Assembly: GCA_016702505.1 (NCBI GenBank)
Contig: JADJDU010000003.1
Coordinates: 256,265 to 320,264, forward strand
Direction: 5' to 3'
Length of the DNA: 64,000 bases
DNA from: Microthrixaceae bacterium
GTDB taxonomy: Bacteria > Actinomycetota > Acidimicrobiia > Acidimicrobiales > Iamiaceae
Part shown: one piece after another, positions 20,612 to 45,172 of the stretch
How positions within the stretch are numbered: the first letter of the stretch is position 1
How the letters are laid out: each line of letters opens with the position of its first letter
Notes under the pieces: model-generated
The model's input: only the letters and a program-made list of their open reading frames with translations
What the model was told of the DNA's origin: nothing
Database searches by the model: none
Program-made: the position numbers and the translations under genes

Positions 20612-21768
20612 CAGTTCCCACCAATCTCTATCAAATCGCGGTTGAGGCCGCCATCCAGGCCGAGCCGGAGGAGTACAGACTCAGAGACGGGAACCATTAC
20701 AGATACCTTCTGTGAAAGACCGGCGAGCTCTCTTGTAGTCCCACGGTCGGGATCAAACTCAAGCAAATTAGAACCATACGGAAGTGGCGTAGCAATGACT
20801 GAGTCGACGGTTGGCCAACTAAATGGTTGGAGGGCTCCGAATCCAGGGGCCAGCGATACTTCTGTCCAGACCCCTGACGAGATGTCAAGCACTGCGCCTC
20901 GAGTCGGAGACTCGGGTGGCCCCCATGGAATAATGACAACGTGGCTTTTCGTGCAATTTACCTTCAATCCCGTACCCGCGCCTGTCAAGATTTTGGGCGA
21001 GTTGCGGATGTCCGCCCATCTGCCATCTACGTCCAACACGGAAAGCTGAGTTGCGAGCTCCTCAGAACCTTTCGTATCAAACGGAAGCATCGCCGCTTCT
21101 CCAGAGGATGCGATCAAACGATCGCCCGACTGGCACAAAGAACCGCTTGTCTGCTCTATGGGAGTCCAACCATCAACAACTCTCTGAGCGTACTGTATTC
21201 CGGGACTTCCGTTTGAATTAGCATATCCCATTACAAGCCTACCGTAAGACGAGTTCAAACTAACATATCGGCCGACCATGGACATGTCTGCTAAGCCTGG
21301 CTCCGGTAGATCTAGGGCCCGTTCCTTGCCAGTAGTAAGATCGTATTCAAACAGACGGTACCCTCCGGGCTCACAGATAAACTGCCCTACGTCGTCGTAT
21401 TGGAACTCACCTACGCACGGAATACCAGCCAAGAAGAGCGATCGCCCGATTGCAGTCGCAACCGGCTCGGCTAAAGGTGTGCTCAGACTCAAGTTGTCCA
21501 CCACTTCCCCGTCTGAATTGAGTCGCACTCCAGAGCGCGTCGCAATGACGCCACCACCGGTGCGTTCGTGCCCAACAACAATTACCGCACCGCCATCGGC
21601 GAGAGGAACAGTGAGTGGATCCACTGTGCCTTCGGTGACCTTAATAAGATAGTCCCGTTCCGGGAGCTGATCACCGCCACTCGATTGACGGCTCGGCTCA
21701 ATCTGCTCCTGATCGCCACAAGATACGGTCCCCACAACCAGAACGCCCGCAGCGATAATCCGGTACAT
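20611..21768 (-). CDS. hypothetical secreted protein/lipoprotein (cargo gene, lower GC)
   Basis: N-terminal hydrophobic signal ending ...VVGTVSCGD (lipobox-like). No recognisable domain. Its stop overlaps the start of the EEP gene. Confidence 0.5.
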   Translation of the reverse strand: MYRIIAAGVLVVGTVSCGDQEQIEPSRQSSGGDQLPERDYLIKVTEGTVDPLTVPLADGGAVIVVGHERTGGGVIATRSGVRLNSDGEVVDNLSLSTPLAEPVATAIGRSLFLAGIPCVGEFQYDDVGQFICEPGGYRLFEYDLTTGKERALDLPEPGLADMSMVGRYVSLNSSYGRLVMGYANSNGSPGIQYAQRVVDGWTPIEQTSGSLCQSGDRLIASSGEAAMLPFDTKGSEELATQLSVLDVDGRWADIRNSPKILTGAGTGLKVNCTKSHVVIIPWGPPESPTRGAVLDISSGVWTEVSLAPGFGALQPFSWPTVDSVIATPLPYGSNLLEFDPDRGTTRELAGLSQKVSVMVPVSESVLLRLGLDGGLNRDLIEIGGN

Positions 21769-22372
21769 GGATCTGACGACCATTTCTTGAGTCCATTCAG
21801 TGCGAAGACGACCGGCACCGAGCACGATATCAGGCGCTGGCCTGCGCAGGCGGGTAGCTCCAGTCTCGACACATACCCGCTCTTCGGATCTGAGGGAGAA
21901 GTGATCGGCGGGTAGGGGTATCGGCTAGACCCCATCTGAAGGCCGACGTCGCTCAGAGCATCGGCATAGCCGAAGTACTGGCCAAGCGAGCCCTTGATCC
22001 TCTGGTCGACGTCGGCGTCGGTGCCGAGCCGCGCGGCATGACGTGCGCGTCGTTGGTGAGCCGCTGGTCTCGGTGGCGCAGCTCGACCGAGTAGCCCATG
22101 CAGCCCAGGGCCGGAGCGGACCACGTCATTCCGCGTCTTCTGGAGCAGCAGCCATACGGACCGGCTTCTCGGTCACAGGCACCCTGCTTCGGCCGCTCCT
22201 AACCCTTATATGGGGAGCGCCACCAGCCGCGCTCGTCTCGGGCAACCCTCCACCGCGTATCTCACCGCGTAGCTCGGTGGACCGGGGTGCGTCCAGAGGT
22301 ACAGAACAGACGGACTGCTTCAAGGGAACGGCAGGTCAGGGTACAGATCGGTACGCAATGGCACGCTGTTCG

Positions 22373-22424
22373 TCGGGCTTTTAATCCGCCGGTTCAGGGT
22401 TCGAGTCCCTGGTGGCCCACCAAC
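22373..22424 (+). repeat. attR: 52-nt direct repeat of the tRNA-Lys 3' half (TCGGGCTTTTAATCCGCCGGTTCAGGGTTCGAGTCCCTGGTGGCCCACCAAC)
   Basis: Identical to tRNA positions ~13594..13643 except for one base (G for A at the anticodon-stem position). Confidence 0.8.
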
Positions 22425-22807
22425 CGAGGTCGAAGCCAGGCCGCAAACTCGGCCTCACCCCAGATCCCGGATGCCACCGCGACCACCGCTTGCTCCGCGT
22501 CATCGATCGACGGCGAATCGACCCAGGTCCACTCGTTCAGCATGACGAAGTACCGCATGGCGACCCAGGCCACCCGCTTGTTTCCGTCTGGCAGGGGATG
22601 GTTCTTGGCCAGCCGGACCATCAGCACCGAGGCCTTGTCCACGAAATCCGGGTAGAGGTCTGATTGCCCGAACCCCGCCGCTGGAGCGTGCAGCGCCGAA
22701 TCTGCGAGATCCAGGTTCGCGACTCTCAGGACGGTGGTCCCGTCGAGCCCGGTGACCTCCTCGGCGATCGCGACGTAGTCGGTGAGGTCGAGGTATCTGA
22801 CGGTCAC
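22394..22807 (-). CDS. doc: type II toxin, Doc/Fic family (death-on-curing); annotated C-terminus runs into the att repeat
   Basis: Fic/Doc motif HPLPDGNKRVAWVAMRYF (HPFxDGNKR). ~126-aa core. Confidence 0.7.
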   Translation of the reverse strand: MTVRYLDLTDYVAIAEEVTGLDGTTVLRVANLDLADSALHAPAAGFGQSDLYPDFVDKASVLMVRLAKNHPLPDGNKRVAWVAMRYFVMLNEWTWVDSPSIDDAEQAVVAVASGIWGEAEFAAWLRPRLVGHQGLEP

Positions 22808-23013
22808 CTGGCCAGACGTTCGAGAAGTTGCCGGTCCTCCTCGACGATCTGACTGATCCGTGCCTTGAACTTTGGGTCCCGCCGCCTGCGCTCGACTGTC
22901 TCCCCGAGTGCTTCCTTCACCAGTTCGTTGACGCTCTTGCCCTCGACACGAGCCAGCGCCTCGGCGTCCGCGGCGAGGTCGTCAGGCAACCGAACGGTCA
23001 TGTTCCTAGTCAT
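22804..23013 (-). CDS. ribbon-helix-helix (CopG/Phd-like) antitoxin
   Basis: 69 aa: MTRNMTVRLPDDLAADAEALARVEGKSVNELVKEAL... is RHH. Overlaps the doc start by 4 nt. Confidence 0.7.
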   Translation of the reverse strand: MTRNMTVRLPDDLAADAEALARVEGKSVNELVKEALGETVERRRRDPKFKARISQIVEEDRQLLERLAR

Positions 23014-23302
23014 GGTGTCATGCTACTACGCCACCAACCTAGAACGAGGGGGCTTCATGGGCAGGACCAACGTTGAGGTGGCTCGAACAAGAGGTCGGGG
23101 CCCCGTGAACCCGGCCGCTACTTGCCGGTTCAATCGTTCTACCCACCTCGAGTAGTCCGCTGTCGGATTGCCCGAACGCCACCGCGTATCTCACCGCGCA
23201 ACTCCTTGGCACGAGGTGGGTCCAGGAGGGACGGAACGGGAGGAGCGGTCCAAGAGAACGGCACGTCATAGGACGAATCAGCACGGGACGACACGCTGTT
23301 CG

Positions 23303-23354
23303 TCGGGCTTTTAATCCGCTGGTTCAGGGTTCGAGTCCCTGGTGGCCCACCAAC
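23303..23354 (+). repeat. second direct copy of the tRNA-Lys 3' half (one mismatch, CCGCT vs CCGCC); remnant att site of an older tandem element
   Basis: TCGGGCTTTTAATCCGCTGGTTCAGGGTTCGAGTCCCTGGTGGCCCACCAAC. The ~130 nt to its left are also partly similar to the ~130 nt left of attR. Confidence 0.75.
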
Positions 23355-23373
23355 GAAGAGCTGGCGGAACGGG

Positions 23374-23619
23374 TCAGTGCTCCTCGTGATTCGACACCCA
23401 GGTGACCCCCGCCACCATCGTGCCGAACCCGACGCCACCCCAGAACCCGACGAAAAGTCCGAGACCTACAGCCGAACCCACCTCGGCACCGGCCGCGACC
23501 ATGCCAGCCGTGGTGGCTATGAACGACAGGACGATGCCGATGGCCGCGCCCAACGCGACAGCCCGTCCCATCCCCGGGGTCTCCTGCCACTGGTCACCTG
23601 CAACACCATGATCGGTCAT
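23374..23619 (-). CDS. small hypothetical membrane protein (2 TM)
   Basis: 81-aa ORF, hydrophobic Gly/Ala-rich. Weak support only. Confidence 0.35.
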   Translation of the reverse strand: MTDHGVAGDQWQETPGMGRAVALGAAIGIVLSFIATTAGMVAAGAEVGSAVGLGLFVGFWGGVGFGTMVAGVTWVSNHEEH

Positions 23620-23732
23620 ACTTCTGGTATCTACCAGATATAAAGGCGCTGGTCACCCTCGCACTCGGGACCCCTCCACCTCAGACCCTCGCCCATTACC
23701 CGCAGACCCACACCTGACCTTCAGGAATCGCC

Positions 23733-24410
23733 ATGCCAGAACCGTCGTTGCAGGACCAGGCCCGAGCGCTCGGCGATCCAACACGGCACTCCATTTTCCG
23801 ATACGTCGCCGACTCGCCCGTTCCTGTGGGTGTAGCCGAGTTGACCGATCACCTGGGCCTCAACCACAACGCCATCCGCCAGCACTTGGCCCGGCTGGTC
23901 GAGGCGGGGCTGCTACTGGAGAGGACGGCGCCGCCTACCGGACGGGGACGCCCACGGTTGCTCTACCGGGAGAACCCGAATGCAGACAGCAGGTGGGGCG
24001 TCACCGGCCCTTACGAGCGGCTGGCCATCCTTCTCGCCGAGGTGGTGCGGAGCGGCGACAGCCCTGAGGAAGTAGGTCGACGAGCCGGGCTCCGAACTGG
24101 AAGCTCCAACAGGTCTAGCCACCCAGACCCCATGACCGCATTCAGCGAGGAGATGGCCCGCCAGGGCTTCTCTCCAACCGTCGAGCGCAATGGGTCCGAA
24201 GCCACGGTGACCCTCATGAACTGCCCGTTCGAGTCCGTGGTTCCGGCCGACGCCGACACGGTGTGTGGCCTACACCTCGGGCTAGCCCGTGGCGTGGCCG
24301 AAGCGGTGGGAGGGCTCGAGGTGACCTCACTGGAAGCCCACGAACCGAAACGAGCCGAGTGCCGCCTCAGGTGCCATGTCGGAGACGCAACTGCGACGTC
24401 GGGGACGTAG
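23733..24410 (+). CDS. ArsR/SmtB-family HTH transcriptional regulator with C-terminal extension
   Basis: LGDPTRHSIFRYVADSPVPVGVAELTDHLGLNHNAIRQHLARLVEAGLL is an ArsR-type wHTH. Confidence 0.7.
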   Translation: MPEPSLQDQARALGDPTRHSIFRYVADSPVPVGVAELTDHLGLNHNAIRQHLARLVEAGLLLERTAPPTGRGRPRLLYRENPNADSRWGVTGPYERLAILLAEVVRSGDSPEEVGRRAGLRTGSSNRSSHPDPMTAFSEEMARQGFSPTVERNGSEATVTLMNCPFESVVPADADTVCGLHLGLARGVAEAVGGLEVTSLEAHEPKRAECRLRCHVGDATATSGT

Positions 24411-24419
24411 CGGATTCGT

Positions 24420-24914
24420 TCAGTCGGCCCACACCAAGCCCGACCAGCAAGCCGGGTCGCCGGCCTCTGCATCCGGCTGCCACTCGAAGGGCCGACCGGT
24501 CAGGTGTTGGCTGTGCACTCGGGCCACGTTGCGGGCCAGGGCCATGGCCTGGTCCGCCATGGGACCGGTCCAGCCACCGCCGACGGTGTCGTGGAAGAGC
24601 GTGAGCCATCGATCGAAGTGCGCGGGTGTGAACGGCACCTGCTCGTGGGTCTCGACGTGGGCGCGCATCGGGTTACCCGTGAACCCGGGAATCCCTAGGA
24701 GCACGCGATTCCAAAAGGCAGCGAGCTTGGGCAGATGTTCGTTCCAGTCGACCTGGGCGACATCGATGAAGATCGGGCCGAGAAGCGGGTCCTGAGCCAC
24801 GTCCTGGTAGAAGCGGCGAACCATCTCGGCCACCTCCTCGGGAGTGTCGAGATCCCGGGTGGGCGTGGTTGTGGGTCGACATTGACTCATGGCGGGATCA
24901 TATCTAGTAACCAC
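24420..24914 (-). CDS. truncated (2/2) hemoglobin, group II-like
   Basis: RFYQDVAQDPLLGPIF...KLAAFWNRVLLG...HFDRWLTLFHDTV matches trHbO-type globins. Confidence 0.65.
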   Translation of the reverse strand: MVTRYDPAMSQCRPTTTPTRDLDTPEEVAEMVRRFYQDVAQDPLLGPIFIDVAQVDWNEHLPKLAAFWNRVLLGIPGFTGNPMRAHVETHEQVPFTPAHFDRWLTLFHDTVGGGWTGPMADQAMALARNVARVHSQHLTGRPFEWQPDAEAGDPACWSGLVWAD

Positions 24915-24923
24915 TAGAACAAT

Positions 24924-26103
24924 TCACCCGGGACCGTCTACAACCGCTTCCAGGACGCCGCGGTAACGCTCGCCTGCCACCGCCATCGAGAACCGGGCCG
25001 CGCGTAGACGTGCAGCCCGGCCCATGCCGTCAAGGCGCTCACGATCGGCCAGCAAACCCGACACCGCGTCGGCCATGGCGGTCACCTCGTGTGATGCGAG
25101 GACCAGCCCGGTCTCACCGTTGGCCACCACCGCGGCCACCCCGCCTACCGGGAAGGAGACCACCGGGCATCCAGCCATCTGAGCCTCGATCGCCACCCCC
25201 GGCATTCCCTCCCCGTCGCTGGTGAGGATCAACAGATCGATCCCACCTAGGACCTGCTCCACCTCTGACACATGACCCAAGAGGTGAACCCGTTCCGCCA
25301 GACCGGCCTTGCCGACCTGGAGCTTGACGGCACCCGACCGTGGCCCTTCCCCGCCATAACCAGGTGAACCTCCACGCCCCGCTCGGCCAGTGCGGCCACC
25401 ACCTCCACGGCCACGTCGGGACGTTTCTGGTCTCGAAGTGACCCACGAAGCCGACGAGCACGGCATCGGACGGCAAACCCAGGCGCGACCGCAGACGACC
25501 GGCCTCGAGTTCTCGGTCGATGGTGTCGAAGCGAACCGAGCTACGAGAGTTGGGAATCAGTTCGACCGGTCCTTCGAAGGCCAACGCCCTCACCTCAGCC
25601 GTCAACTCAGGTGTCAGCGAGATGATCGCATCGGTACGCCCGAACACCAATCGCCACCACCAGCGCCAACACCGGCCCCGCTCTGCCACCGGCATCCCCA
25701 TTATGAGCTGGTTGACCACCGGACGCCTCCGACCGCCCAACACCGCCACCTGCAACGCTGAGCCGCCGTGGGCCAGGATCACGTCGGCATCGGTAACACC
25801 GACAGCACGACGCAACCGGGCCGCCGCCAGGGCAATCGCCAGCGGGGACTGACGAACCGCTCCGGTCAGTACCGGCAGGTCGGCAACGGTTCCTCCCTCG
25901 TGACCCGGACCGACTGCCCAAAAGGAGCTGGAGTGGCCGAACCGCTCCAGCTCTCGAGCCAACTCCAACGCCACCAACTCGGCACCACGATGGTGACTGC
26001 GGCCGACGAGGTGGAGGATCCGCACGGCCGGGAGTCTGTCACGCGCACCCGGACCATCGGAGCGGGTCATACTCGCGTGCCGTGTCCACTCCCGACTGCG
26101 CAC
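24924..26103 (-). pseudogene. GT4 (group 1) glycosyltransferase disrupted by two frameshifts (~25425 and ~25345)
   Basis: N-domain in frame A (25114..26103 ORF: ...LVGFVGHFETR). The next ~28 aa are readable only in a third frame (KRPDVAVEVVAALAERGVEVHLVMAG). The C-domain is in frame B (..25466 ORF: EGPRSGAVKLQVGKAGLAERVHLLGHV...EGMPGVAIEAQMAGCPVV). Confidence 0.6.
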
Positions 26104-27232
26104 CTGTCAATGGCCAGGAGCGGCCCGTGCGCGTCCTCGACCTGGTCAAGGGGCTCGACCGAGGCGGAGCCGAGACGCTCCTACTGACCGGCGCCCGCCA
26201 CCGGTACCCCGCCATCACCTCCGAGATCGCCTACCTGAGCTCCCGCCACGACCAACTCGTCGATGAGCTGACCGCCGAGGGGGTGAAGGTCACATGCCTG
26301 GCACCAGGTTCTATGGTCGACCCCCGCTGGCTTTGGCGTTTGCGTCGCGCCTAGCCGAAGTGGACGTGACCCATTCCCATTCACCGGTCCCGGCCACCGC
26401 GGCCAGGATCGTCTCGCGGACGATTCCCCGCCACCGTCGACCATCGCTGGTGACCACCGAGCACAACGTCTGGGACAGCCACCACCCCCTGACCAGACTG
26501 GCCGAGCGGATCACCTTCAAACTCGACGACGCCCACCTAGCAGTGTCCACCGCTGTGCTCGAGTCGCTCCCAGAGACCTACCGACCGGGTGTCGAGGTGG
26601 TGAGAGCGGGTGTCGACCTCGACGACGTCCGCTCTCACGCCGACCGGACCGGGATGCGCACAGAACTGGGAGTCTCCGATGACGAGGTCCTGATCGGCAC
26701 CGTGGCGAACCTGCGAGCGCAGAAGGGCTATCCCGACCTCCTGAGAGCGGCAAGACACGTGATCGATGCCGTGCCCAACGCCCGGTTCGTGGCCGCGGGA
26801 CGAGGGCCCCAACAGGGCGAGCTGGAGGCCCTGCACCTCGACCTGGGCCTAGGTGACCGATTCAGGTTCCTCGGTCACCGGGCCGATGCCGTGCGGGTGA
26901 TGTCCGGGCTGGACCTGTTCTGCCTCGCATCGCATCACGAAGGCCTGCCCGTCGCCCTAATGGAAGCACTGGCTCTGGGTCTGCCGGTGGTGTTGACATG
27001 AGTTGGAGGCATTCTTGAGCTGATCACCGACGGTGATCAAGGCCTCTTGGTCGACATCGGGTCGGTGGACGCCCTGGCCAACGCCCTCATCTCCGAGGCC
27101 CGCAACACCGAAGAACGCGCCACCCACGCCCGGGCGGCGCTGGCCACCGGCGATCAGCTCTCGATCAAGACCTCGGTGAAGCGGACCGAGGATCTGTACC
27201 GAACGATGGTCGAGGCCCGATGAGCGCCACCG
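26082..27232 (+). pseudogene. GT4 glycosyltransferase with one frameshift (~26340) and an in-frame TGA (26998-27000)
   Basis: ORF 26082..26354 is the N-term (RVLDLVKGLDRGGAETLLL...DPRWLWRLRRA). ORF 26294..27001 continues (LAEVDVTHSHSP...EGLPVALMEALALGLPVVLT*). After the TGA the same frame reads VGGILELITDGDQGLLVDIGSVDALANAL..., the canonical GT4 C-terminus. Confidence 0.6.
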
Positions 27233-29219
27233 AACCGGGTACCGGCGGTCACGAGGCCGGTCAGGCCCGCGAAGGCGACATTCCCAACCTTCAACGCCAA
27301 CTCGAAGCAGAACGGGCCGGAGCCACCTATTGGCGAGAACGGGCCCAGCACCACGAGAGCGCCCTGGCTGAGATCAAGTCCCGAACCGGGGTCCGAGCGG
27401 TCCTGGCTCTCGAACGTCGCACCGCGGGGATTCGCCGACGAGCCAAGGCCGTCGCCGCCGAGGTCCAAGCCGCCGGTTCGAGGTCAGCGCTGACGATTTC
27501 GGCCTTGCCCACGAGGGCGGTGATCCCCTCCCGACGCCGGGCGTTGGACGAAGCGGTGGCCCAAGCCAATCGCATGCCCCCCCTCGACCTTCGGCCAGTC
27601 CTGGTGGTGTGCATCGGGGTTGCATCGCCTCCGGCGTGGGCGGCATCAGTGGCCAGTCGTTCGACCGCCTCCGGCTCGATCACCGTCACCGTGTCCGAGA
27701 TCGAGGACCTGCCCGAGGTTGTGTCTCAGGCCGACGACGAGATCGAACTGATCTGCCTGGTCGATGCCCAGGTCGAGCCGCTCACGTCCACCTGGCTGGA
27801 CCATCTGTATGGGTCCCTCACCGAGAACGACGCGGCCGCGGCAACCGGCGTCATGGTTCACCCCCAACGGGCCCTCGCTCATTCGACGCCTCACGACTAC
27901 CTGATCCGCTCAGCCGGGTTCGAAGTGCTCACCGACACCTCGGGCGCCCCATCGGTGGTCCCGCTCCTGGCCGGCAGCATCGTCTCCCGTGCTGTCGACC
28001 GCACCGTCGATCTGGCCGGCGGGGCAATGTTGTTGGTGGATCGCCAGGCCGCGGTCGCCGCCGGTGGCTTCGACCGCTGGGGTTCCGCCGATGCCTGTGC
28101 CGTCGACCTGTGTTCGAGGCTCAACCGGAGGGCCCGGGCCGTGACCGTGGCGTCGGCTGCGCTCGGTATCGACCACCGCGACGTAACCGATCGACGCGGA
28201 TTGCGCCGCCCCTTCGACGAGACCGCTCCGGTTTGGTGCGATCTGCTCGAGCGATGTGGTCCGGCGCTGCGCCGAAGCGCAGCCACCGACCGCAATGCCC
28301 CGACATCGTTCACGTTCGCGGTGGCTGCACCCTCACCCAAGGTGGCCGACCGATGGGGTGATTGGCACCTGGCCGAGGCCATGTCCCGCGCCCTGCGATC
28401 GGCGGGATACGGAGCCGCCGTCCACACCAATCAGAGCGGAACGATCCCGGGGCCCTGTGTGCCGACGTTCAGGTGGTCGTCCGTGGCCTGGCTGGCTCGA
28501 CCCCCACCCCGGGACGCCACCAGGTGCTGTGGGTTATCAGCCACCCTGAGGACCTGCAGATCACCGAGTGCGACCGAGCCGACCTGGTACTGGTCGCTTC
28601 GAAGCTCTACGCCGATCACCTGGCGACCCTCACCTCGACTCCTGTCGGCGTGCTCCTCCAGGCCACCGACACGGCGCGCTTCCGCCCGGTACCCACCAAC
28701 CCGGATCGTCACCACGACGTGGTGGTGGTCGCGAAGTCCAGGGATGTCCTTCGGCCCATGGTGTCCCACGCCCTGGCGGCCGGCCTTCGGCCCGCCATCT
28801 ACGGCAGCGGTTGGGACCACCTAATACGACCGTCACTGATCGTCTGCGACCACATCGACAACGAATCCCTCCCCGAGCTCTACTCATCGGCCGGAGTTGT
28901 CCTCAACGACCACTGGGACACCATGCGCCACTGGGGCTTCCTGTCCAACCGCCTGTTCGACGTCCTCGCCTGCGGTACACCTGTCATATCCGACCCGATT
29001 CCCGGCCTCGGGGAACACCTCGGCGACCTGGTACCAACCTGTTCGACACCCGGTGAGCTGGCAGACCTGGTCCGCGGTGCGTTGTCGCTGAACCGAGACG
29101 CCTTTGCCGAACGGGCCCGGACAACCATCACCGCGGCCCACACCTTCACCCAGCGGGCCCGCGAGCTGACCAACGCATTGGCCGCGGCTGGAGTTCCCAT
29201 CCACCATCCAGTGTGCTGA
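27220..29219 (+). pseudogene. CgeB-family / group-1-like glycosyltransferase with N-terminal coiled coil; one frameshift at ~28440 within CCGGGGCCC (or a sequencing indel)
   Basis: ORF 27220.. is coherent to ...AVHTNQSG and then degenerates. ORF 28362..29219 continues from ALCADVQVVVRGLAG...HQVLWVISHPEDL...DLVLVASKLYADHLA (DUF3880/CgeB-like) through a GT1-type C-terminus. Confidence 0.5.
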
Positions 29220-29282
29220 TCGGCGATCGATAACGCGCGCTAGCATTTCCGGTCGCTGTTACCAAAGGAGTCGGTTCGCACA

Positions 29283-29738
29283 ATGGGTTACGTGATGGTG
29301 CCGGTGCCCGAGGAACACGTCGAGGAAGCGATGGAGGCCGTCCTTCGCATCACGCGCAGCGCTCGACTCACGCCTTGGGATCAGGAATCCATGGATGAGT
29401 TCTGGGCCGGGCTCGACGAGGGGGCCAAGGCCTTGGCTTCGTTGGTTGCCAGGGCAACGCTGGCCAACCGGCAGATCTCCCAGGCATCAGCAGCAGACCG
29501 CATGGAGGTCACCCAACGGGAGATCCTCGGGATCGTGCGAGACGTGAACCACCGAGCCCACGACATCGAAAGGCCCGCGGTCCTGATGGTCCAGGAGGCC
29601 ACCGAGACCCTGGCCAACGGGCGGACCCGGCCGGTTTCCATCGTTTCCACCAACGTGGCGCTGGCCCCCCTGATCCAACAGGCCGAACAGAACGACCTGG
29701 CCGGAGGCACCTCCACAGGGAGCGGGCTTCCGGGGTGA
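29283..29738 (+). CDS. hypothetical small protein, paralog of 49946..50374 (shared N-terminus MG.V.VPVPEEH.EE)
   Basis: 151 aa. Stop overlaps the wzm-wzt start (ATGA). No recognisable domain. Confidence 0.5.
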   Translation: MGYVMVPVPEEHVEEAMEAVLRITRSARLTPWDQESMDEFWAGLDEGAKALASLVARATLANRQISQASAADRMEVTQREILGIVRDVNHRAHDIERPAVLMVQEATETLANGRTRPVSIVSTNVALAPLIQQAEQNDLAGGTSTGSGLPG

Positions 29739-31378
29739 CAGACTTCGCCAGCGCGGCCGGCGAGCGCCCGTACAGCGACGTCGAGTACGTCTTCGAGCCG
29801 CACGACCACTCGCTTCCCGACCCTCGCGGCTACATCCGCGATGTCTGGGATCGTCGTGCCTTCATGGTGGCGAACGCCAAGGCGGAGATGAAGAGCCCCT
29901 ACGCCGGGACCGTTCTGGGCGAAGCCTGGCACATCCTCGATCCGCTCTTCCAAGCCCTGATCTACATGTTCCTGTTCACCGCTATCAGAGGAAACGGGAG
30001 CACCGACTACTTCCTCATGGTCGTGTCGGGGGTGTTCCTGTTCAACTTCACCATGGTCGGTCTGGGTCGTGGAGGGCGGGCCATCCAACGGTCGAAAGGG
30101 CTGGTGCTCAATTCGACCTTCCCGCTGGCAACCCTCCCGTTCTCGATGCTGTACGGCGGGTTCTTGGAGTTGTTGCCCACGTTGGGCGTGTACGCCGTGT
30201 TCCACCTCGTCTTCGGGGAGCGTTCGGGGTTGGCTTGTTCACCCTTCCTCCTGTTCATCCTTCAGGTCGCGATAATCGTGGGGCTGATGCTCCTCTTCGC
30301 CACCCTCACCGTCTACGTGAGGGACATGTCCAACCTGTTGGACTACATCCTCCGTATCCTGATGTTCGTCACCCCGGTCATCTATCCGGCGTCCCAGTTG
30401 GAGAAGCTCCCCACGGTTCTGGCCGCGATTTTGCACCTGAACCCGTTCTTCACCCTCTTCACCTCCTACCAGACCGCACTGAGCGGTGGGGTTCCGCGGC
30501 CCACGGACATCGCCCAGTCGATGGTGTGGGCCGTGGTGCTACCCATCTTGGGATTTCGGTTCTTCGTGTCCGGGAACGGGCTTCGCCATGAGGCTCCAGT
30601 GACTACAGGACCCGATCTGCCCGCGATCGAGGTGCAGAACCTGTCGACGTCCTACCACGTCCACCTCGACGCTGGTTCGACGTGGGGCGGCATCTACGAC
30701 CTGCTTCGACGCAGCCCGGACACCGACAGGATCGTCCCGGCCTTACGAGATGTCTCCTTCGAGGTGCCCCGAGGCAACGTTCTGGGTGTCATCGGACGAA
30801 ACGGTGCCGGAAAATCGACCCTGCTGCGCTGCATCGCTGGGGTACTACCCCCCGAACAGGGGCGAGTGGTGGTCCGGGGCCGAATCTCCTCACTTCTCAG
30901 CATCGGCGTGGGCATGAACGGCAGCCTCACCGGACGGGAGAACATCAGGCTCGGTGGTCTGGCCATCGGCCTGAGCCCCGACCAACTCGATGACATGACC
31001 GACGACATCGCCCACTTCGCCCAGTTGGGCGAGTACGTGGACTTCCCGGTCAACGCCTACTCGTCGGGGATGAAGGCCCGCCTCGGATTCGCGGTCGTCG
31101 CCCACTTGGACCCCGAAGTCCTCCTCATCGACGAGGCCCTGGCTGGCGGCGACTCCAAGTTCCAGGAGAAGGTGGCCAAGAAGATGGCCGAGATCTGCAG
31201 CAGCGGCCGGACCATCGTCTTGGTGAGCCACGGTCTCAATGCTCTGCGGTCGATGGCCACCACCGCCATTTGGCTGCACCAAGGACAGATCGTCGAGGAC
31301 GGGGACCCCGATGACGTCGTTTCCTCATACATGCGCTTTGCTCGAATCCAGGCCCTCGGCGGCGAACTCGACTTCTGA
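29735..31378 (+). CDS. fused ABC-2 permease / ATPase polysaccharide exporter (Wzm-Wzt / TagG-TagH-like)
   Basis: N-terminal six-TM ABC-2 domain. C-terminal NBD with Walker A GRNGAGKST, signature YSSGMKARLGFA and Walker B LLIDEAL. No C-terminal carbohydrate-binding extension. Confidence 0.85.
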   Translation: MTDFASAAGERPYSDVEYVFEPHDHSLPDPRGYIRDVWDRRAFMVANAKAEMKSPYAGTVLGEAWHILDPLFQALIYMFLFTAIRGNGSTDYFLMVVSGVFLFNFTMVGLGRGGRAIQRSKGLVLNSTFPLATLPFSMLYGGFLELLPTLGVYAVFHLVFGERSGLACSPFLLFILQVAIIVGLMLLFATLTVYVRDMSNLLDYILRILMFVTPVIYPASQLEKLPTVLAAILHLNPFFTLFTSYQTALSGGVPRPTDIAQSMVWAVVLPILGFRFFVSGNGLRHEAPVTTGPDLPAIEVQNLSTSYHVHLDAGSTWGGIYDLLRRSPDTDRIVPALRDVSFEVPRGNVLGVIGRNGAGKSTLLRCIAGVLPPEQGRVVVRGRISSLLSIGVGMNGSLTGRENIRLGGLAIGLSPDQLDDMTDDIAHFAQLGEYVDFPVNAYSSGMKARLGFAVVAHLDPEVLLIDEALAGGDSKFQEKVAKKMAEICSSGRTIVLVSHGLNALRSMATTAIWLHQGQIVEDGDPDDVVSSYMRFARIQALGGELDF

Positions 31379-31399
31379 TACGGAACAAAGGACACCTAC

Positions 31400-32602
31400 G
31401 TGACGATCCCTTTCACTCCATTCGAAGACGACGACCTCCCACCCAGATCACGTCCTGTCAAAGAGCCCGAGCCGATCGACGACACCGTGCCGCCAACGTC
31501 AGCGCAGACGGGCCGAACCCCCGATGCCGGCGCCTCCAGCGACGATGTGACCGAAGACGACGACGAACCCCGCCTGGGGACGTCGCCCACCATCTCCAAG
31601 GCCGACGTCTCGGCCAAGGCGTCTAGGCGCAAGGCTCGGACCGGGGGTTCAGGTGGCTCAGGAGCGCGGCGCCGCAGCCGCCCCATCCTGGGGATCTCAC
31701 TCGTGGTTCTGGCGGCGGTGGTGTTCGCTGGCCTTCCGCTCCTCAAGTCGGCGTTCGCCCGCACACCCAAGGACCGCATCGGCATCAGCTACGGCGGTGG
31801 CCCGATCGAAGGCGTTCACTTCCAAAAGATCGTCGAACCCGGCCACGGCCTCTTCTTCAACGGCTTCTTCGATTCTCTCTACCTCTACCCCGCCGACCAG
31901 CTCAACTACATCCTGGCTCCCAAGCCGACCAAGGACGGCAAGGACACGACCCCCGACGCGGTCGTTGCACCCACCTCAGACCGTGTGAACGTGAGCTATC
32001 AGGTTGCCGTCTACTACCGGCTGAACACCGACAAGCTCCGAGACTTCCACGAGGAGTTCGGCCTCCGCTATCAGGCCTACACCAACAAGGGCTGGGATCG
32101 CCTGGTGGCCGACACCCTGCGCCAGCAGATCGAGGCTGCCCTCCAGGAGGAGACCAGGCGGCACACCGTCGCCGACCTGTTCGGGGACGCTGACCTTCTC
32201 GTCAAGGTCCAGAACGAGATCCAGGGAACCATCAGCACCCGCCTGGAAGCGGCGATGGGCGGACGGTTCTTCTGCGGCCCCACGTTCACAGCGGGCGGTG
32301 AGTGCGGCAACCCGACCTTCGTGATCAAGCGGATCGACATCCCCGAGTCGGTAGCCGCCGCCTTCGAGTCGAACCGGACTTCTGAGGTGATGATCACCAC
32401 CCGCCAGAACGAGGTCCGTCAACGCGAGGAGGAGGCTCGGGCCATCGCCGCCATCAACGAAGCCCTCCAGCAGAACTCCCGCGCCTACGTGATGCTCAAG
32501 GCCATCGAGTCCGGGAAGATCAACTTCTGGGTCATCCCCGAGGGAGCAGACGTCGACCTCACCGCTCCCGACACCTCCACGCCGCCCACGGCCGGCCAGT
32601 AA
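31400..32602 (+). CDS. SPFH/band-7 (stomatin/prohibitin-like) membrane protein with acidic disordered N-terminus
   Basis: One TM (ILGISLVVLAAVVFAGLPLL) followed by an SPFH-like core and a C-terminal coiled coil. Confidence 0.65.
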   Translation: MTIPFTPFEDDDLPPRSRPVKEPEPIDDTVPPTSAQTGRTPDAGASSDDVTEDDDEPRLGTSPTISKADVSAKASRRKARTGGSGGSGARRRSRPILGISLVVLAAVVFAGLPLLKSAFARTPKDRIGISYGGGPIEGVHFQKIVEPGHGLFFNGFFDSLYLYPADQLNYILAPKPTKDGKDTTPDAVVAPTSDRVNVSYQVAVYYRLNTDKLRDFHEEFGLRYQAYTNKGWDRLVADTLRQQIEAALQEETRRHTVADLFGDADLLVKVQNEIQGTISTRLEAAMGGRFFCGPTFTAGGECGNPTFVIKRIDIPESVAAAFESNRTSEVMITTRQNEVRQREEEARAIAAINEALQQNSRAYVMLKAIESGKINFWVIPEGADVDLTAPDTSTPPTAGQ

Positions 32603-32622
32603 GCATCGGCACTCCCCTAACC

Positions 32623-35458
32623 ATGCAGCTGGTCATATTGGGAATGCACCGGTCCGGCACCTCGGGTGTCACCCGGCTGCTGAACATGGCCGGCGCCTAC
32701 TTTGGCCCCCCAGGGATCGCCACCGATGCCAACGAGGAGAACCCCAAGGGTTTCTGGGAACGCCGAGACGTGCGCGCCCTGTGCGACGGGCTCCTCCAGG
32801 GAGCCGGATTCGACTGGTTCCGACTCGGCGGCTTCTGAGCCGTCCGCCATCCCCGATGATCTACGTCAGGTCCAGGCAGAAGCCTTTGCTCATGTCCTAG
32901 ATGACCTGAACGCCCATCAGCCTTGGGTGGTGAAGGAACCGAGGCTCTGCCTGCTCATGCCGGTTCTGGAACACCTCCTCGACAGCGCGGTGTTCGTTCA
33001 CGTGTCGCGTGACCCCATCGAGGTGGCCCGATCCGTACACCACAGGAACAACCTCCCGATGGCGGGAGCCGTCGCCCTCTGGGAGACCTACACCCTCAGC
33101 GCCCTTTCGGCATCCGCAGGCCGCCCGCGGGCCCACGTCCGCCACGAGGAGGTCATGGCTGACCCGGTCGGCACCTTGAACCGCCTGATCGCTGACCTGG
33201 AAGCGTTGGGTGTGACCGGACTCGTCGCACCGGACCCCGAGGCGATAACCGACTTCATCGTTCCCAGCCTTCACCGCCAGCGCAGCGATCGCTCCAATCG
33301 GGAACACCACCTGAACGCCGACCAGCTCCACCTGGCCGACCTGTTGGACCGCAACCCACTGCCTGAGGTCCTGCCGCCACTGTCAGCAGGTGGGGCCGAC
33401 GCGCTTGCCGACCTCGTCCGCTTCGATGACGAGATCGTGGCCCGCAAGCAGGCCGAGCTCGACCAGCGGAGGGCACAGGCCGAGACCAGGCGGCTGACAG
33501 CCGAGACCCAAAGGCTTGAGCGCGCTATCGAGCGCATGGAAGCCACCCTGGACCATGAGCGAACCAGAAGGGCCGAACTCGGAGCGTCAGCCCTCGAATC
33601 GCTGGACCGAGCCGAGCGCGACATCAGGGCCATGACTGCTGGCCGGACCGCGACGGCCGCCGCCTACCTCACTGCCGCCCGCCGCACCGTGACACCTGGC
33701 GTCAGTCGGACCGACCCAACTCCGTTCTCCCGGGCCCTAGCCGGCGTCGAGAAGGGACGACGTCGCATTCGCGGGATGACCGCCGACTTACCCAGCACCT
33801 CGGTACGTACCACGACCCCTGGGATTGCTGAGGACCAAGCCGACCCCCCATCCAAACCTGAGACTCCGATCCAGCGGACCCGGCCTAGAACACCGAGCAG
33901 CGATCGACCGAAGGTGGCCGTACTGGCCTGGGACGTAGGGCACAACCCGCTGGGTCGAGCCAACGTATTGGCCGAGGTCTTGAGCGGTGATTACGAGGTA
34001 GAGCTCTGGGGCGCTCAGTTCGAGCGATATGGAAGCCGGATCTGGGCCCCGCTGCGAGACATCCCGACTCCTGTGAACGTCTTCCCCGGACGTCCCTTCC
34101 CCGACCACCTCGAGACGATGGAACAGGTCGCCGCCACCATCGATGCCGACGCCCTCTGGGTGTCCAAGCCTCGGCTGCCATCGTTCCTGCTCGGGGCATT
34201 GACCAAACAGCTCCGAAATCGACCACTGGTGCTGGACATCGATGACCACGAGCTGGCGTTCTTCGACGTCGACGAAGGGTTGGACATCAGATCGCTCTCA
34301 CCCCGACGCGGCGACAAGTCGCTGATTCTCCCCTTCGAGCGGGACTGGACCCGTGCCTGTGAGCCCTTGGTCGGTGGGGCAGATCTCCTCACCGTGTCCA
34401 ACGTCGCCCTCCAACAACGGTTCGGGGGCACGATCGTCCCCCACGCCCGGGACGAGGACATCTTCGACCCCGGAGTCGTAGACCGTGGAGCGGCTCGCCA
34501 TCGGCTGGGCATCGGGCCCAACGAGCGGGTTCTGCTCTTCGGGGGAACACCAAGGCTTCACAAGGGGATAATGGAGATCCTCACCGCGCTCGAGAAGCTC
34601 GGCGACCGTCGCTACCGGCTGATGGTGTTCGGAACCCGCGAGTTCGACGAGATGCGACCCCAGATCGGTGATTTGGCTCGATGGCTCCTACCCCTTCCTT
34701 ATCAGCCGTTCTCGGCGTTGCCCGAGGTGGTGGCAGCGGCCGACCTGGCCTGCATCCTCCAGAACCCCGAACATCCGGTCTCGGCGTACCAACTGCCGGC
34801 CAAGCTCACCGATGCGTTGGCCATGGGGGTGCCGGTCCTACTGCGGGAGACCCCACCGCTCCGTCCGATCATCGAGGCCGGGGCCGTCGCTGCTCTCCAG
34901 CCCGAAGACGACCTCGCAGATGCCATCGGTGCGGTATTCGAAGATGCCGAGACCACCTCTGAGCGGGTGGATGCCGGCCGCCGGCTGTTCCTGGACACGA
35001 TGAGCTATGGGGCGGTCCGCCACCAGATCCGCCCGGTGTTCGACTCGCTCATCAGCGATCCCCCCGCCCTATCTGCTGACCTCCGTGCCCTGATAGAGGT
35101 GCCAACGGAGTTGTTCGCCGGTCAGACCTCCTCGAGCCGCGAACCCCAGGCGTTCGCGCCAACCGTCGCGGCCTCGAGTCTCGGACCTGGCTGTACGGCG
35201 GCTCCCGGACCAGACGTCTCGGCCTGCCGGCCCGCAGCGACTACGTCGACCACGTCACCCGCGCACTGGCGAAGAAGGGCATCGGCGAGCGGCCATGGGT
35301 GCTTTGGGCATACCCGACAAATCCCGACCTCCCCCTTCTCATCGATCGTCTTCGTCCCGACGTGGTGTTGGCCGACGTGGTGGACGACAACCGGACCTGG
35401 TACTCACCGGGTACCGCCGAGCACGATCGGATCGACCAGAACTACCGCGACGTGCTGA
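32623..35458 (+). CDS. multidomain sulfotransferase / coiled-coil / GT4 glycosyltransferase fusion (frameshift at ~32835; region after ~35100 probably mis-framed)
   Basis: ORF 32623..32838 is the 5'-PSB motif MHRSGTSGVTRLLNMAG. The 32702.. frame continues with sulfotransferase KEPRLCLLMPVLEHL...HVSRDPIEVARSVHHRN. Coiled coil ~33400-33650, a Pro/Thr linker, then a GT4 domain at 33900-35050 (VAVLAWDVGHNP...GVPVLLRETP). Confidence 0.6.
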
Positions 35459-36129
35459 GCCGCTCCGACCTGGTCATCGCCAACTGCGAGCCGGCAGCCG
35501 CGGCCATGAAGGAGTTCGCCCCCGAGGTGCACGTGGTGCCCAATGGTCTCGAGCTCGATCCCCCGACGGTCACCGCCAAGATCGATGTGCGCGCTTTCGG
35601 CAGCCCGATCATCGGCTACGTGGGGAACCTCTCGTCCCGCATAGACATCGATCTGCTCGACGCCCTAGCCCGGGCACGACCTCGCTGGCAGTTCGTGTTC
35701 GTGGGCTCGACCCACCTGGACCCAGCCATCCTCCGCCTCGATGAGCACGCCAACGTTCATTTCCTCGGAGTTGTCCACCATCACCAGGCCAGAGCGATCA
35801 TGGCCGACTTCGATGTGGCTCTCATTCCCCACATCGACAACGAGATGACCCAGTCGATGAATCCACTCAAGGCTTTCGTGTACGCCTCCGTTGGTGTCCC
35901 GGTCGTGTCTACGCCCATCGCCAACCTGGGCGAACTAGGTGGGCTCATCTCGATCGCCAGCGGGGTCGACGGCTTCGTGACCGCCATCGAAGCCGAGCTG
36001 ACCAAGCCGCGCACCTCCGTCGACCGTGCCAGGCTCGAACCCCATTCCTGGGGGTCGCGACTGAAGTCGGTCCTGGATCTGATCGACGGCATCGGCCGTG
36101 GTGATTCGCCTTTGGGACCTAACAACTAG
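35299..36129 (+). CDS. glycosyltransferase group 1 C-terminal-domain protein; N-terminus may continue upstream to ~35080 in the same frame or belong to the preceding fusion protein
   Basis: GYVGNLSSRIDIDLLDALARARPRWQFVFVG...PLKAFVYASVGVPVVST is a GT-B C-domain. Upstream same-frame peptide ...RRLGLPARSDYVDHVTRALAKKGIGERPWVLW has no start codon. Confidence 0.5.
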   Translation: MLWAYPTNPDLPLLIDRLRPDVVLADVVDDNRTWYSPGTAEHDRIDQNYRDVLSRSDLVIANCEPAAAAMKEFAPEVHVVPNGLELDPPTVTAKIDVRAFGSPIIGYVGNLSSRIDIDLLDALARARPRWQFVFVGSTHLDPAILRLDEHANVHFLGVVHHHQARAIMADFDVALIPHIDNEMTQSMNPLKAFVYASVGVPVVSTPIANLGELGGLISIASGVDGFVTAIEAELTKPRTSVDRARLEPHSWGSRLKSVLDLIDGIGRGDSPLGPNN

Positions 36130-36187
36130 ATGCGCGTTCGCTGATAGCTTCCGCGCGTCGTCATCTGTCAAGGGGTAGATCCGCAAC

Positions 36188-44027: not shown

Positions 44028-45172
44028 TCACGGGGTGTCGCCGTCGCCACCTTCGCCACCCTGGTTCGCCATGAGGTGAGCGATCAGCTTCTGACGCACC
44101 TCCTCATTGGTCTCAGCCAACTGGGCGAACAGGATCTTCTCGTGCTCCTCGATCGAGACGGTGGTGAGGGTCCAGCCCTCCCGGCCGTGAGCAGCCCCGG
44201 GACCACCCCGATACGGCACCGCCGGAGCATCATCGACCACGAAATCCCACTCGGCATAAAAGTCCTTACGAGTCCAAGCCAACGTCGAAGGCGTCTCACC
44301 CGGACGCTGAGTCCGCAACGGCCCCACGAACACCTGACCCAACCCAACCCCAGAACCAGCACCCATCAAACCAGGCGGCGGACGATCGAAATACGTCCGC
44401 CAATACCGCTCCGAGAAGAACAACGCGCAGTAATCCAACCGGTGGTACTCATCGATGAACATGTACCCGTCATCGACCAGATACGGCCACAAACCAATCA
44501 CACACTCATGGAAACTGGACTGATAATCCACATCCACATACGCACACACGATCGGCTCAGAGTGCGAACCCATCGTGTCCGAGAACCACCCCTTACGGAA
44601 CTCACACACCTCCACCGCCCCAAACCGCGTGACGTTGGAACGCACCTCCTCCAACTCACCCTTGAACGCCCCCTCACCCATCTCACTGGCCCAATGATCG
44701 CCCTCCACCGCCGGCGGCAACCCTTCGAAGCTGTCATAGACGATCAAGCTCCGACCCGCCGCCTGAGCGATCAACGACAAGTTCGCAGTAGTACCACCCT
44801 TCCAACACCCCGCCTCCACCATCACACCTCAACCGAGCGCGGCACCGACAACACCTTCGCCGCAATGGCCAGATGCCCCCGATAGCTCAACCCGGTCTGG
44901 ATCTTGGTCGTGTTCCGACGCATGCGTCGCGCCAACCCGAACCGCTTACGCCACGTCAACCCGTGCGAAGGATCGATCGGAGCCCCATAGAACAAGAACA
45001 ACGTCAAATGAAACCACGACGCCGCCTCATAGGCGTCCGCAACCCGCCTCACCAACCGCGTACGCCGACCTTTCGAAAAACGCTGCGAAACCGCGGCCCG
45101 AACACGCCGACGAAGTCCAAACCCCTTAGATGACACGAGGCGCGACCGTAGTGCCCCCCTGCCACCGCGCAC
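44028..45172 (-). CDS. TylF-family O-methyltransferase, apparently split by a frameshift at ~44822 (C-terminal part 44028..44825; possible N-terminal part 44822..45172)
   Basis: C-part: VEAGCWKGGTTANLSL...IVYDSFEGLPP...DVDYQSSFHECV. The upstream ORF ends ...LAIAAKVLSVPRSVEV* with its stop overlapping the C-part start codon (ATGA). The N-part match to TylF is weak. Confidence 0.5.

What the first reader, a model, noticed from the sequence alone, without database searches (positions are those of the whole stretch)
24924..29219. Three consecutive glycosyltransferase genes each disrupted by frameshifts or an in-frame stop
GT4 #1 (24924..26103, minus) needs two frame changes within ~100 nt. GT4 #2 (26082..27232, plus) has one frameshift and a TGA exactly where a conserved residue precedes VGG (...LPVVLT*VGGILELITDG). 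The CgeB-like GT (27220..29219) shifts frame inside CCGGGGCCC. Further single shifts occur at 32835 (sulfotransferase) and 44822 (TylF MTase). The two giant genes (1131 and 1093 aa) are intact. Either this part of the locus is decaying (recent pseudogenisation, phase variation) or there are local homopolymer indel errors.
Basis: seen in the sequence. Interest (0 to 1): 0.5.

Follow-up and report, generated by a model that had tools for sequence, protein, structure and literature searches.

The report
Probable assembly errors breaking sugar-transferase genes
The three broken sugar-transferase genes are really broken in this sequence, but the damage is private to one long-read metagenome assembly of a sewage-sludge Microthrix-family bacterium and looks like a stretch of uncorrected sequencing error rather than real gene decay, so it is most likely ordinary.

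Summary
GT4 #1 has two frameshifts, GT4 #2 has one frameshift plus an in-frame TGA, and the CgeB-like gene has one frameshift.

Thirteen independent assemblies of the same species (99.6-99.95% identical) together cover window 5983-61402. The nine error-free ones that span the three genes carry them intact (382, 365/380 and 666 aa). Adding four single bases and reverting one T to C restores all three genes at 99-100% identity.

The lesions are private to the window. There are 12 small indels, 11 of them within 25349-32836, and none in about 45 kb of flanks except 44829. There is also a burst of five C>T changes in 41 bp, one of which makes the TGA, and a 277-bp deletion at 35154|35155.

Private indels versus SNPs are 11:13 in the window and 2:66 in the other assemblies. 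Eight of the 12 indels shorten C/G runs of 3-5 bases.

The window matches an NCBI MAG (Microthrixaceae bacterium, 643,761-bp contig), so it is a long-read assembly.

Best reading: a locally unpolished long-read consensus, confidence about 0.7. Genuine strain-specific decay is not excluded (about 0.1-0.15). Phase variation and recoding are rejected. Only read mapping can settle it.

The parts
24924..26070 (-). GT4 glycosyltransferase #1 (382 aa when intact), broken by two private 1-nt deletions at 25349 (C5>C4) and 25434 (A)
   Evidence: Pfam Glyco_transf_4 + Glycos_transf_1. Intact 382-aa orthologue in L010-L018. Lesions. The repaired frame is 381/382 identical to P0004.
26082..27223 (+). GT4 glycosyltransferase #2 (365/380 aa when intact). 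Private 1-nt deletion at 26350 (C3>C2). Five private C>T changes at 26994, 26999 (CGA>TGA stop), 27003, 27015 and 27034.
   Evidence: The repaired frame is 375/379 identical to P0021; three of its four differences (S305L, A308V, P312L) come from the C>T burst and the fourth (I192M) is a population polymorphism at 26656. Nearest solved relatives are BshA/MshA/PimB-type GT4 enzymes.
27220..29219 (+). CgeB-like glycosyltransferase (666 aa when intact; C-terminal PF13524 domain). Private 1-nt deletion at 28427 (C3>C2), C>T at 28547, and a C moved at 28827/28830 (Asp>Arg).
   Evidence: The repaired frame is 664/666 identical to P0014.
29735..31378 (+). Wzm permease (29735-30602) and Wzt ATPase (30599-31378). 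They read as one 547-aa ORF because of private deletions at 30572 (C3>C2) and 30578 (G4>G3). There is also 30219 G>A with 30220 delC and 30247 delCC (net -3).
   Evidence: The other assemblies carry separate genes of 290 aa and 259 aa. Lesions. Coordinates mapped.
32623..36129 (+). Sulfotransfer_3 + GT gene (1260 aa when intact). Private extra T at 32836, private SNP at 34771, and a private 277-bp deletion at 35154|35155 with no flanking repeat.
44028..45052 (-). TylF-like methyltransferase (341 aa when intact). Private 1-nt deletion at 44829 (C3>C2) and SNP at 44837. Both lie in the stretch where most short-read contigs of the species end.
25349..35154 (.). The error-rich stretch. It holds 11 of the 12 private small indels, 8 of the 13 private SNPs and the 277-bp deletion. 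The flanks 5983-25348 and 35155-61402 carry no private indel except 44829.

Best explanation
The three glycosyltransferase genes, the Wzm/Wzt pair, the sulfotransferase/GT gene and one TylF-like gene belong to an ordinary ABC-transporter-dependent surface-glycan locus. That locus is intact in the species.

The window comes from a long-read metagenome-assembled genome: NCBI 'Microthrixaceae bacterium', locus-tag prefix IPG97, contig of 643,761 bp. About 10 kb of it (25.3-35.2 kb), plus one site at 44.8 kb, appears to have kept raw long-read consensus quality while the rest was corrected.

The frameshifts, the TGA and the apparent gene fusion would then be consensus errors, not biology.

Shown: the lesions are private, clustered, indel-dominated and mostly in short C/G runs, and the source is a long-read MAG.

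Inferred: the sequencing platform and pipeline (probably Nanopore R9.4.1, CANU, racon/medaka and a single Illumina racon round), and the reason polishing failed locally.
For: 1. Nine error-free independent assemblies from JGI, ENA, Logan and NCBI span the three genes at 99.6-99.8% identity and have all six affected genes intact. With further contigs, 13 sources cover 5983-61402.

2. Five single-base edits restore the three GT genes at 99-100% protein identity.

3. All 12 private small indels lie at 25349-32836 or at 44829. None lies in the other roughly 45 kb compared. Clustering P = 3e-9.

4. Private indels versus SNPs are 11:13 in the window and 2:66 across the other assemblies (Fisher P = 3e-6). 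Ten of the 12 indels are missing bases. Eight of the 12 shorten C/G runs of 3-5 bases, against 12.7% expected (P = 2e-5).

5. Lesions come in short bursts: 25349/25434, five C>T in 41 bp, 28827/28830, 30219-30247 and 30572/30578. Independent natural mutations would not be expected to do this.

6. Apart from its private lesions, the window is an ordinary member of the population in this stretch, with 0-5 mismatches per 2-3 kb to most strains. There has been little evolutionary time in which decay could accumulate.

7. NCBI proteins MBK6855803.1 and MBK6855806.1 carry the window's private alleles. They come from a MAG with a 643,761-bp contig.

8. Nanopore consensus indels that cause frameshifts are well documented and need short-read polishing (PMC9262707). 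The pipeline of the likely source study used one Illumina racon round with --include-unpolished (PMC8012365). The Microthrix-family MAGs listed from that study had 7-57x Illumina and 10-70x Nanopore coverage (PMC8267870 supplement).

9. Another long-read contig of the same species (L009/L019) has its own local burst of about 58 indels. Regional error clusters therefore do occur in such assemblies.

10. The isolated lesion at 44829 sits where most short-read contigs of the species end. Short-read polishing is expected to be weak there.

11. The broken or fused products of 534, 318 and 547 aa are on record nowhere. Their intact neighbours are listed in 103-149 blocks of the collection.
Against: - No reads were available, so no base call was tested directly.
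- No cause was found for a polishing failure over exactly this 10 kb. The stretch has no repeat within the window and no unusual composition, and short-read assemblies of other samples cross it without trouble.
- A clean 277-bp deletion without flanking repeats is not a typical base-calling error.
- Three lesions (25434, 32836 and the C>T burst) are not homopolymer errors.
- The lesions coincide with functionally linked genes of one locus, which is what real decay of a dispensable pathway would also produce.
- The link to BioProject PRJNA629478 rests on my recollection of its locus-tag style. No tool confirmed it.
Confidence: 0.72

Rival explanations
1. Genuine strain-specific pseudogenisation. 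A Microthrix-family strain in one treatment plant has inactivated this surface-glycan locus, for example under phage pressure or relaxed selection, and the lesions are real mutations.
For: The lesions are confined to functionally linked genes of one glycan locus. The 277-bp deletion without repeats looks like a real structural change. CGA>TGA is a classic nonsense transition. Four of the six C>T changes lie in CGA, as methyl-cytosine deamination would give (a post hoc test). The flanks show that the assembly is otherwise accurate.
Against: Private indels versus SNPs are 11:13 here and 2:66 in the natural population. From general knowledge, neutral bacterial DNA gains several substitutions per indel, so 12 indels should come with many tens of substitutions, and only 8 are seen in the stretch. 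Five C>T in 41 bp and the paired indels a few bases apart are not what independent mutations give. Outside its private lesions the strain is not diverged. None of the broken products occurs in any other public assembly.
Confidence: 0.12
2. A mixed case. The 277-bp deletion, and perhaps the nonsense codon, is a real variant of a minor co-occurring strain. That part of the contig was built from few reads of that strain, and the small indels are uncorrected consensus errors.
For: The deletion differs in kind from the other lesions. Strain heterogeneity was reported for several Microthrix MAGs of the likely source study, with StrHet up to 67%. This reading would give a reason for locally low effective coverage.
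Against: Shared polymorphisms give no sign of a switch of strain background in the stretch. There is no direct coverage information.
Confidence: 0.15
3. Phase variation or programmed recoding. Slippage at homopolymer tracts switches the genes on and off, or ribosomal frameshifting or stop-codon readthrough yields full-length proteins.
For: Eight of the 12 indels are in C/G runs. Glycosyltransferases are classic phase-variable genes in other bacteria (general knowledge).
Against: The tracts are only 2-5 bases long, and known contingency tracts are usually 7 or more (general knowledge). All other error-free assemblies show the same in-frame length at every tract, with no length polymorphism. No X XXY YYZ slippery site is visible at the shift points. 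Five separate recoding events in three genes, absent from 99.8%-identical strains, is implausible. The TGA replaces an ordinary Arg codon inside a burst of C>T changes.
Confidence: 0.01

Closest known systems
Residual indel errors in Nanopore-based, short-read-polished genomes and MAGs (frameshifted or fragmented gene calls)
   Same: The lesions are one-base indels that mostly shorten short C/G runs. They fragment genes, are private to one long-read assembly and appear in local bursts. A parallel burst exists in another long-read contig of the same species.
   Different: The errors are confined to about 10 kb of an otherwise clean 55 kb, and no cause for that was found. The set also includes a 277-bp deletion and a C>T burst, neither of which is a classic homopolymer error.
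Genuine decay of surface-polysaccharide loci in bacterial lineages (general knowledge, e.g. O-antigen gene inactivation in Yersinia pestis)
   Same: Several linked glycan-synthesis genes carry frameshifts, a nonsense codon and a deletion.
   Different: The ratio of indels to substitutions is far too high. The lesions are bunched within tens of bases. The background strain is not diverged, and no second assembly shares any lesion.
Phase-variable glycosyltransferase genes with homopolymer tracts (Campylobacter, Haemophilus, Neisseria contingency loci; general knowledge)
   Same: Glycosyltransferase genes are interrupted by a change in the length of a nucleotide run.
   Different: The runs are 2-5 bases, not 7 or more. 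No length variation is seen among 13 other assemblies. Some lesions are not in runs at all.
ABC-transporter-dependent (Wzm/Wzt) glycan biosynthesis loci with GT4 enzymes of the BshA/MshA/PimB fold class
   Same: The intact locus in the other assemblies has two GT4 genes, a CgeB-like GT, Wzm, Wzt, a sulfotransferase/GT, TylF-like and CmcI-like methyltransferases, a radical-SAM protein and dTDP-sugar genes.
   Different: No NCBIfam equivalog cut-off is reached, so donor and acceptor sugars are unknown. The 666-aa CgeB-like protein has about 500 residues with no family match.

Membership tests
GT4 glycosyltransferases (Pfam Glyco_transf_4 + Glycos_transf_1) | N-terminal GT4 domain and C-terminal GT1-type domain, both above Pfam gathering scores | tested here: met
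   Intact orthologues P0004 and P0021 score 112.9/53.8 and 118.8/54.1 bits. The window fragments also hit both halves.
GT4 glycosyltransferases (specific named enzymes such as BshA, MshA, EpsE) | Score above the NCBIfam equivalog cut-off | tested here: not met
   Best hits reach 98.6 and 130.3 bits against cut-offs of 273.7 and 409. This gives the family only, not a named function.
CgeB-like glycosyltransferase (Pfam PF13524 Glyco_trans_1_2) | C-terminal PF13524 domain above the gathering score | tested here: met
   69-70.7 bits against a cut-off of 25, in both the window fragment and the intact 666-aa orthologue. The remaining roughly 500 residues have no match.
Long-read consensus artefact | Lesions absent from independent assemblies of the same population | tested here: met
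   All 12 small indels, the 277-bp deletion and 13 SNPs are private to the window among up to 10 independent sources per site.
Long-read consensus artefact | Source assembly made from error-prone long reads | tested here: inconclusive
   The window's private alleles equal NCBI MAG proteins from a 643,761-bp contig, which implies long reads. The platform and pipeline are attributed from memory of the locus-tag series and were not verified.
Long-read consensus artefact | Indel-dominated, homopolymer-biased error spectrum | tested here: met
   Private indels versus SNPs are 11:13 against 2:66 (P = 3e-6). Eight of the 12 indels are in C/G runs of 3 or more bases (P = 2e-5).
Long-read consensus artefact | Reads contradict the consensus at the lesion sites | not testable with these tools
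   No read data are available.
True pseudogenes (recent decay) | Lesions supported by reads or shared by a second independent isolate or assembly | tested here: not met
   No other assembly shares any lesion. The broken products are not on record. Reads could not be tested.
True pseudogenes (recent decay) | Mutation spectrum like neutral evolution, with substitutions outnumbering indels | tested here: not met
   The stretch holds 11 small indels and one 277-bp deletion against 8 private substitutions, 5 of which form one 41-bp burst.
Phase-variable contingency locus | Long simple-sequence tract whose length varies among strains | tested here: not met
   The tracts are 2-5 bases and identical in all other error-free assemblies.
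Programmed ribosomal frameshift or stop-codon recoding | The frameshift or stop is conserved in relatives, together with a slippery site or recoding signal | tested here: not met
   Relatives at 99.8% identity and at about 70% identity (L001, L002) encode uninterrupted frames. No slippery heptamer is visible at the sites.

The most novel reading that the evidence does not exclude
The lesions are real. A single Microthrix-family strain suffered a localised, indel-biased burst of mutation over about 10 kb of its surface-glycan locus. This could have been an error-prone repair or replication tract, or damage to single-stranded DNA that produced strand-coordinated C>T changes. The stretch begins 2 kb from an integrated element at tRNA-Lys that encodes a TrwC relaxase. 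The burst knocked out glycan synthesis in one step.
Probability: 0.07. Interest if true: 0.45.

Novelty: not a real feature. Interest (0 to 1): 0.08.

Why it matters
If the artefact reading is right, the finding has no biological meaning. Its value is as a warning. This public 'high-quality' MAG holds a 10-kb stretch at roughly one error per 500 bp. That stretch creates six false pseudogenes, two truncated protein records in NCBI (MBK6855803.1 and MBK6855806.1) and a false Wzm-Wzt fusion.

Anyone using this genome for pseudogene counts, pan-genome work or glycan-locus comparison would be misled. This matters more if, as I infer but could not verify, it serves as a species representative.

If the lesions were real, they would be an unusual case of localised, indel-rich inactivation of a surface-glycan locus in a bacterium that causes sludge bulking. 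The evidence is against that.

Tried and rejected
1. Exact-product look-ups of the window's broken or fused proteins (547, 534, 318 and 222 aa) found nothing. This fits private lesions, but it is weak evidence, because the window's own genome is apparently not in that index either.

2. Look-ups with the 439-aa, 1093-aa and 282-aa ORFs failed. Other ORFs were used instead. Positions 1-5982 and 61403-64000 stayed without a close comparator.

3. Two scans of metagenome contigs returned nothing, one for the 277-bp deletion junction and one for either allele at 30572/30578. The second pattern does match the wild-type allele in ten loci already fetched. The collection therefore lacks this species' contigs, and both negatives say nothing.

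4. Import of the stretch from a diverged lineage by recombination is rejected. Shared polymorphisms show no change of background.

5. A repeat within the window as the cause of mis-polishing is rejected. No second copy of 25-35.5 kb or of 43-46 kb exists in the window.

6. Unusual base composition of the stretch is rejected.

7. Phase variation, programmed frameshifting and selenocysteine or readthrough at the TGA are rejected. The reasons are given under rival explanations.

8. A CGAG or CGA context for the C>T and +T lesions is enriched. The test was post hoc, and the pattern fits both methylation-linked miscalls and real methyl-cytosine deamination, so it does not discriminate.

9. I looked for the MAG's identity in the supplement of PMC8267870. 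Neither '643761' nor 'IPG97' occurs there. The exact MAG remains unidentified.
Full report
**What is in the sequence**

The window is high-GC DNA, about 66%. Between 24924 and 29219 there are three glycosyltransferase genes, and none has a single open frame.

Pfam places Glyco_transf_4 and Glycos_transf_1 halves on separate ORF pieces of the first two genes. It places a PF13524 (CgeB-type) domain on the last piece of the third. An in-frame TGA lies at 26999-27001.

**Relatives**

A scan of one genome per species returned four syntenic Acidimicrobiales/Actinomycetota MAG loci at about 70-76% DNA identity. Where these loci reach the three genes, the genes are uninterrupted. In L001 they are 376, 382 and 659 aa, and L002 is likewise intact.

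Exact-protein look-ups with intact neighbouring ORFs gave much closer material. The ORFs used were the 151-aa, 331-aa and 307-aa proteins and the 1110-aa TrwC. They returned contigs from 13 independent sources (JGI, ENA, Logan and three NCBI MAGs). These contigs are 99.6-99.95% identical to the window and together cover 5983-61402.

In every one of these that reaches the relevant gene, except one visibly noisy long-read contig (L009/L019):
- GT4 #1 is 382 aa.
- GT4 #2 is 365 or 380 aa, depending on the start chosen.
- The CgeB-like gene is 666 aa.
- Wzm (290 aa) and Wzt (259 aa) are separate genes.
- The sulfotransferase/GT gene is 1260 aa.
- The TylF-like gene is 341 aa.

**The lesions**

A base-by-base comparison gives the window-private differences.

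Small indels and linked changes:

| Position | Change in the window | Context |
|---|---|---|
| 25349 | missing C | C5>C4 |
| 25434 | missing A | no run |
| 26350 | missing C | C3>C2 |
| 28427 | missing C | C3>C2 |
| 28827 / 28830 | a C moved | turns Asp into Arg |
| 30219 / 30220 | G>A plus missing C | complex change at a G5 run |
| 30247 | missing CC | C4>C2 |
| 30572 | missing C | C3>C2 |
| 30578 | missing G | G4>G3 |
| 32836 | extra T | no run |
| 44829 | missing C | C3>C2 |

Other private changes:
- A 277-bp deletion at 35154|35155. It has no flanking repeat or microhomology, and the missing 277 nt are identical in nine other contigs.
- Five C>T changes within 41 bp, at 26994, 26999, 27003, 27015 and 27034.
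- Single substitutions at 28547 (C>T), 34771, 44837, 20534, 52525/52526, 54200 and 60743.

The change at 26999 turns CGA (Arg) into the TGA stop.

Inserting four bases and reverting 26999 restores all three genes. They become 381/382, 375/379 and 664/666 identical to the proteins of the other assemblies. These lesions are therefore the whole cause of the disruption.

It is in fact about 20 nt upstream.

**Distribution and spectrum**

Of the 12 private small indels, 11 fall in 25349-32836 and one at 44829. None falls in 5983-25348, 32837-44828 or 44830-61402. The binomial P for this clustering is 3e-9.

Among sites covered by at least four other sources, the window has 11 private indels and 13 private SNPs. 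All the other assemblies together have 2 private indels and 66 private SNPs (Fisher P = 3e-6).

Ten of the 12 indels are missing bases. Eight shorten C/G runs of at least 3 bases, although such runs make up only 12.7% of the stretch (P = 2e-5).

The lesions are bunched within tens of bases of each other.

Apart from its private lesions, the window differs from most strains by only 0-5 sites per 2-3 kb in this stretch, the same as in the flanks. The stretch was therefore not imported from a diverged lineage, and its branch is short.

**Where the window comes from**

Cluster look-ups returned two NCBI proteins that carry the window's private alleles:
- MBK6855803.1 is 222 aa and ends '...LPVVLT'. 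That includes the private S>L change and stops at the TGA.
- MBK6855806.1 is 153 aa and carries the private 'HLIRPSL'.

Both are labelled 'MAG: ... [Microthrixaceae bacterium]'. The neighbouring 151-aa protein has locus tag IPG97_04420, and the contig is 643,761 bp long. A contig of that size from activated sludge implies long reads.

From memory, and not verified by any tool, this locus-tag series belongs to the 1083 MAGs of Singleton et al. 2021. Their pipeline was as follows (PMC8012365):
- CANU assembly of Nanopore R9.4.1 reads.
- One round of racon with Nanopore reads.
- Two rounds of medaka.
- A single racon round with Illumina reads, run with --include-unpolished.

The 12 Microthrix-family MAGs listed from that study had 7-57x Illumina and 10-70x Nanopore coverage, and several showed strain heterogeneity (PMC8267870 supplement).

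Nanopore consensus indels that cause frameshifts, and the need for short-read polishing, are documented in PMC9262707.

**Interpretation**

The best explanation is that about 10 kb of this contig, plus a spot at 44.8 kb, escaped short-read correction and kept long-read consensus quality.

The error density is about one per 500 bp. From general knowledge that is the order expected for low-coverage R9.4.1 consensus. The flanks have no private indel at all, as expected after polishing.

Two observations in this dataset support the idea:
- Another long-read contig of the same species (L009/L019) has its own burst of about 58 one-base insertions in 1.45 kb, with few elsewhere.
- The isolated lesion at 44829 lies in a strongly C/A-skewed stretch where most short-read contigs of the species end on either side. 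Short reads evidently do not cover that stretch well.

**Weaknesses of this reading**

- I found no cause for a polishing failure over exactly 25.3-35.2 kb. There is no repeat within the window and no compositional anomaly, and other short-read assemblies cross it.
- A clean 277-bp deletion is not a typical base-calling error.
- Three lesions are not in homopolymers.

A mixed scenario therefore remains plausible. In it, the deletion is real in a minor strain whose few reads built this part of the contig.

**Rival readings**

Full genuine decay would need an indel-to-substitution ratio above 1. It would also need a five-hit C>T burst and closely paired indels, all on a branch too short to show extra substitutions. 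I give it about 0.12.

Phase variation is rejected because the tracts are only 2-5 bases long and do not vary among the other assemblies.

Recoding is rejected because relatives at both 99.8% and about 70% identity encode uninterrupted frames, and no slippery sites are present.

**What the locus is**

In intact form the locus is an ordinary ABC-transporter-dependent surface-glycan cluster. It contains:
- Two GT4 enzymes. Their nearest solved relatives are of the BshA/MshA/PimB class, and no NCBIfam equivalog cut-off is reached.
- A 666-aa protein with a C-terminal CgeB-type domain.
- Wzm and Wzt, and a Band_7 protein.
- A 1260-aa sulfotransferase/GT protein.
- Large multidomain TylF/CmcI methyltransferase-GT proteins of 1131 and 1093 aa.
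- Further TylF-like methyltransferases, hexapeptide acyltransferases and a radical-SAM protein.
- dTDP-sugar genes.

Nothing about its content is unusual enough to change the verdict.

**Verdict**

- As biology, this is most likely not a real feature.
- Interest is low.
- Mapping the MAG's own reads would settle it.

Noticed in passing
window 13565-23354: tRNA-Lys(ttt) lies at 13565-13640. Its 3' 52 nt are repeated at 22373-22424 and 23303-23354. The DNA between them is an integrated element of about 8.7 kb plus a 0.9-kb remnant. The element carries an integrase (13733-15325), a TrwC-type relaxase (15983-19315), two unknown ORFs and a Fic/RHH pair. It is absent from two otherwise near-identical contigs (L013, L017) and present in five others.
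   Followed up: partly
window 29735-31378: The 547-aa 'ABC transporter' ORF is a false fusion of the Wzm permease and the Wzt ATPase. Private deletions at 30572 and 30578 create it. A further 9-codon out-of-frame patch lies between 30220 and 30247.
   Followed up: yes
window 35154|35155: A private 277-bp deletion lies inside the 1260-aa sulfotransferase/GT gene. It has no flanking repeat or microhomology. It is the lesion least like a base-calling error and could be a real variant of a minor strain.
   Followed up: partly
window 44300-45000: The 5' part of a TylF-like gene (minus strand) is strongly C/A-rich on the + strand (GC skew -0.34). Most short-read contigs of the species end on either side of it (44213-44299 and 44973-45106). 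No repeat within the window explains this.
   Followed up: partly
L009 / L019 (JGI 3300056999, Ga0558716_00922), equivalent to window 37738-39185: This long-read contig of the same species has about 58 one-base insertions in 1.45 kb, which break the 1131-aa gene, and a few elsewhere. It is an independent example of a local error burst.
   Followed up: partly
window 26994-27034, 28547, 32836: Four of the six private C>T changes lie in a CGA context, and three lesions hit CGAG (post hoc P about 0.001-0.002). This could reflect a methylated motif, through either nanopore miscalls or real deamination.
   Followed up: partly
NCBI proteins MBK6855803.1 and MBK6855806.1: These public protein records are truncated fragments (222 aa and 153 aa) of the 365/380-aa and 666-aa glycosyltransferases. 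They exist only because of the window's private lesions.
   Followed up: yes
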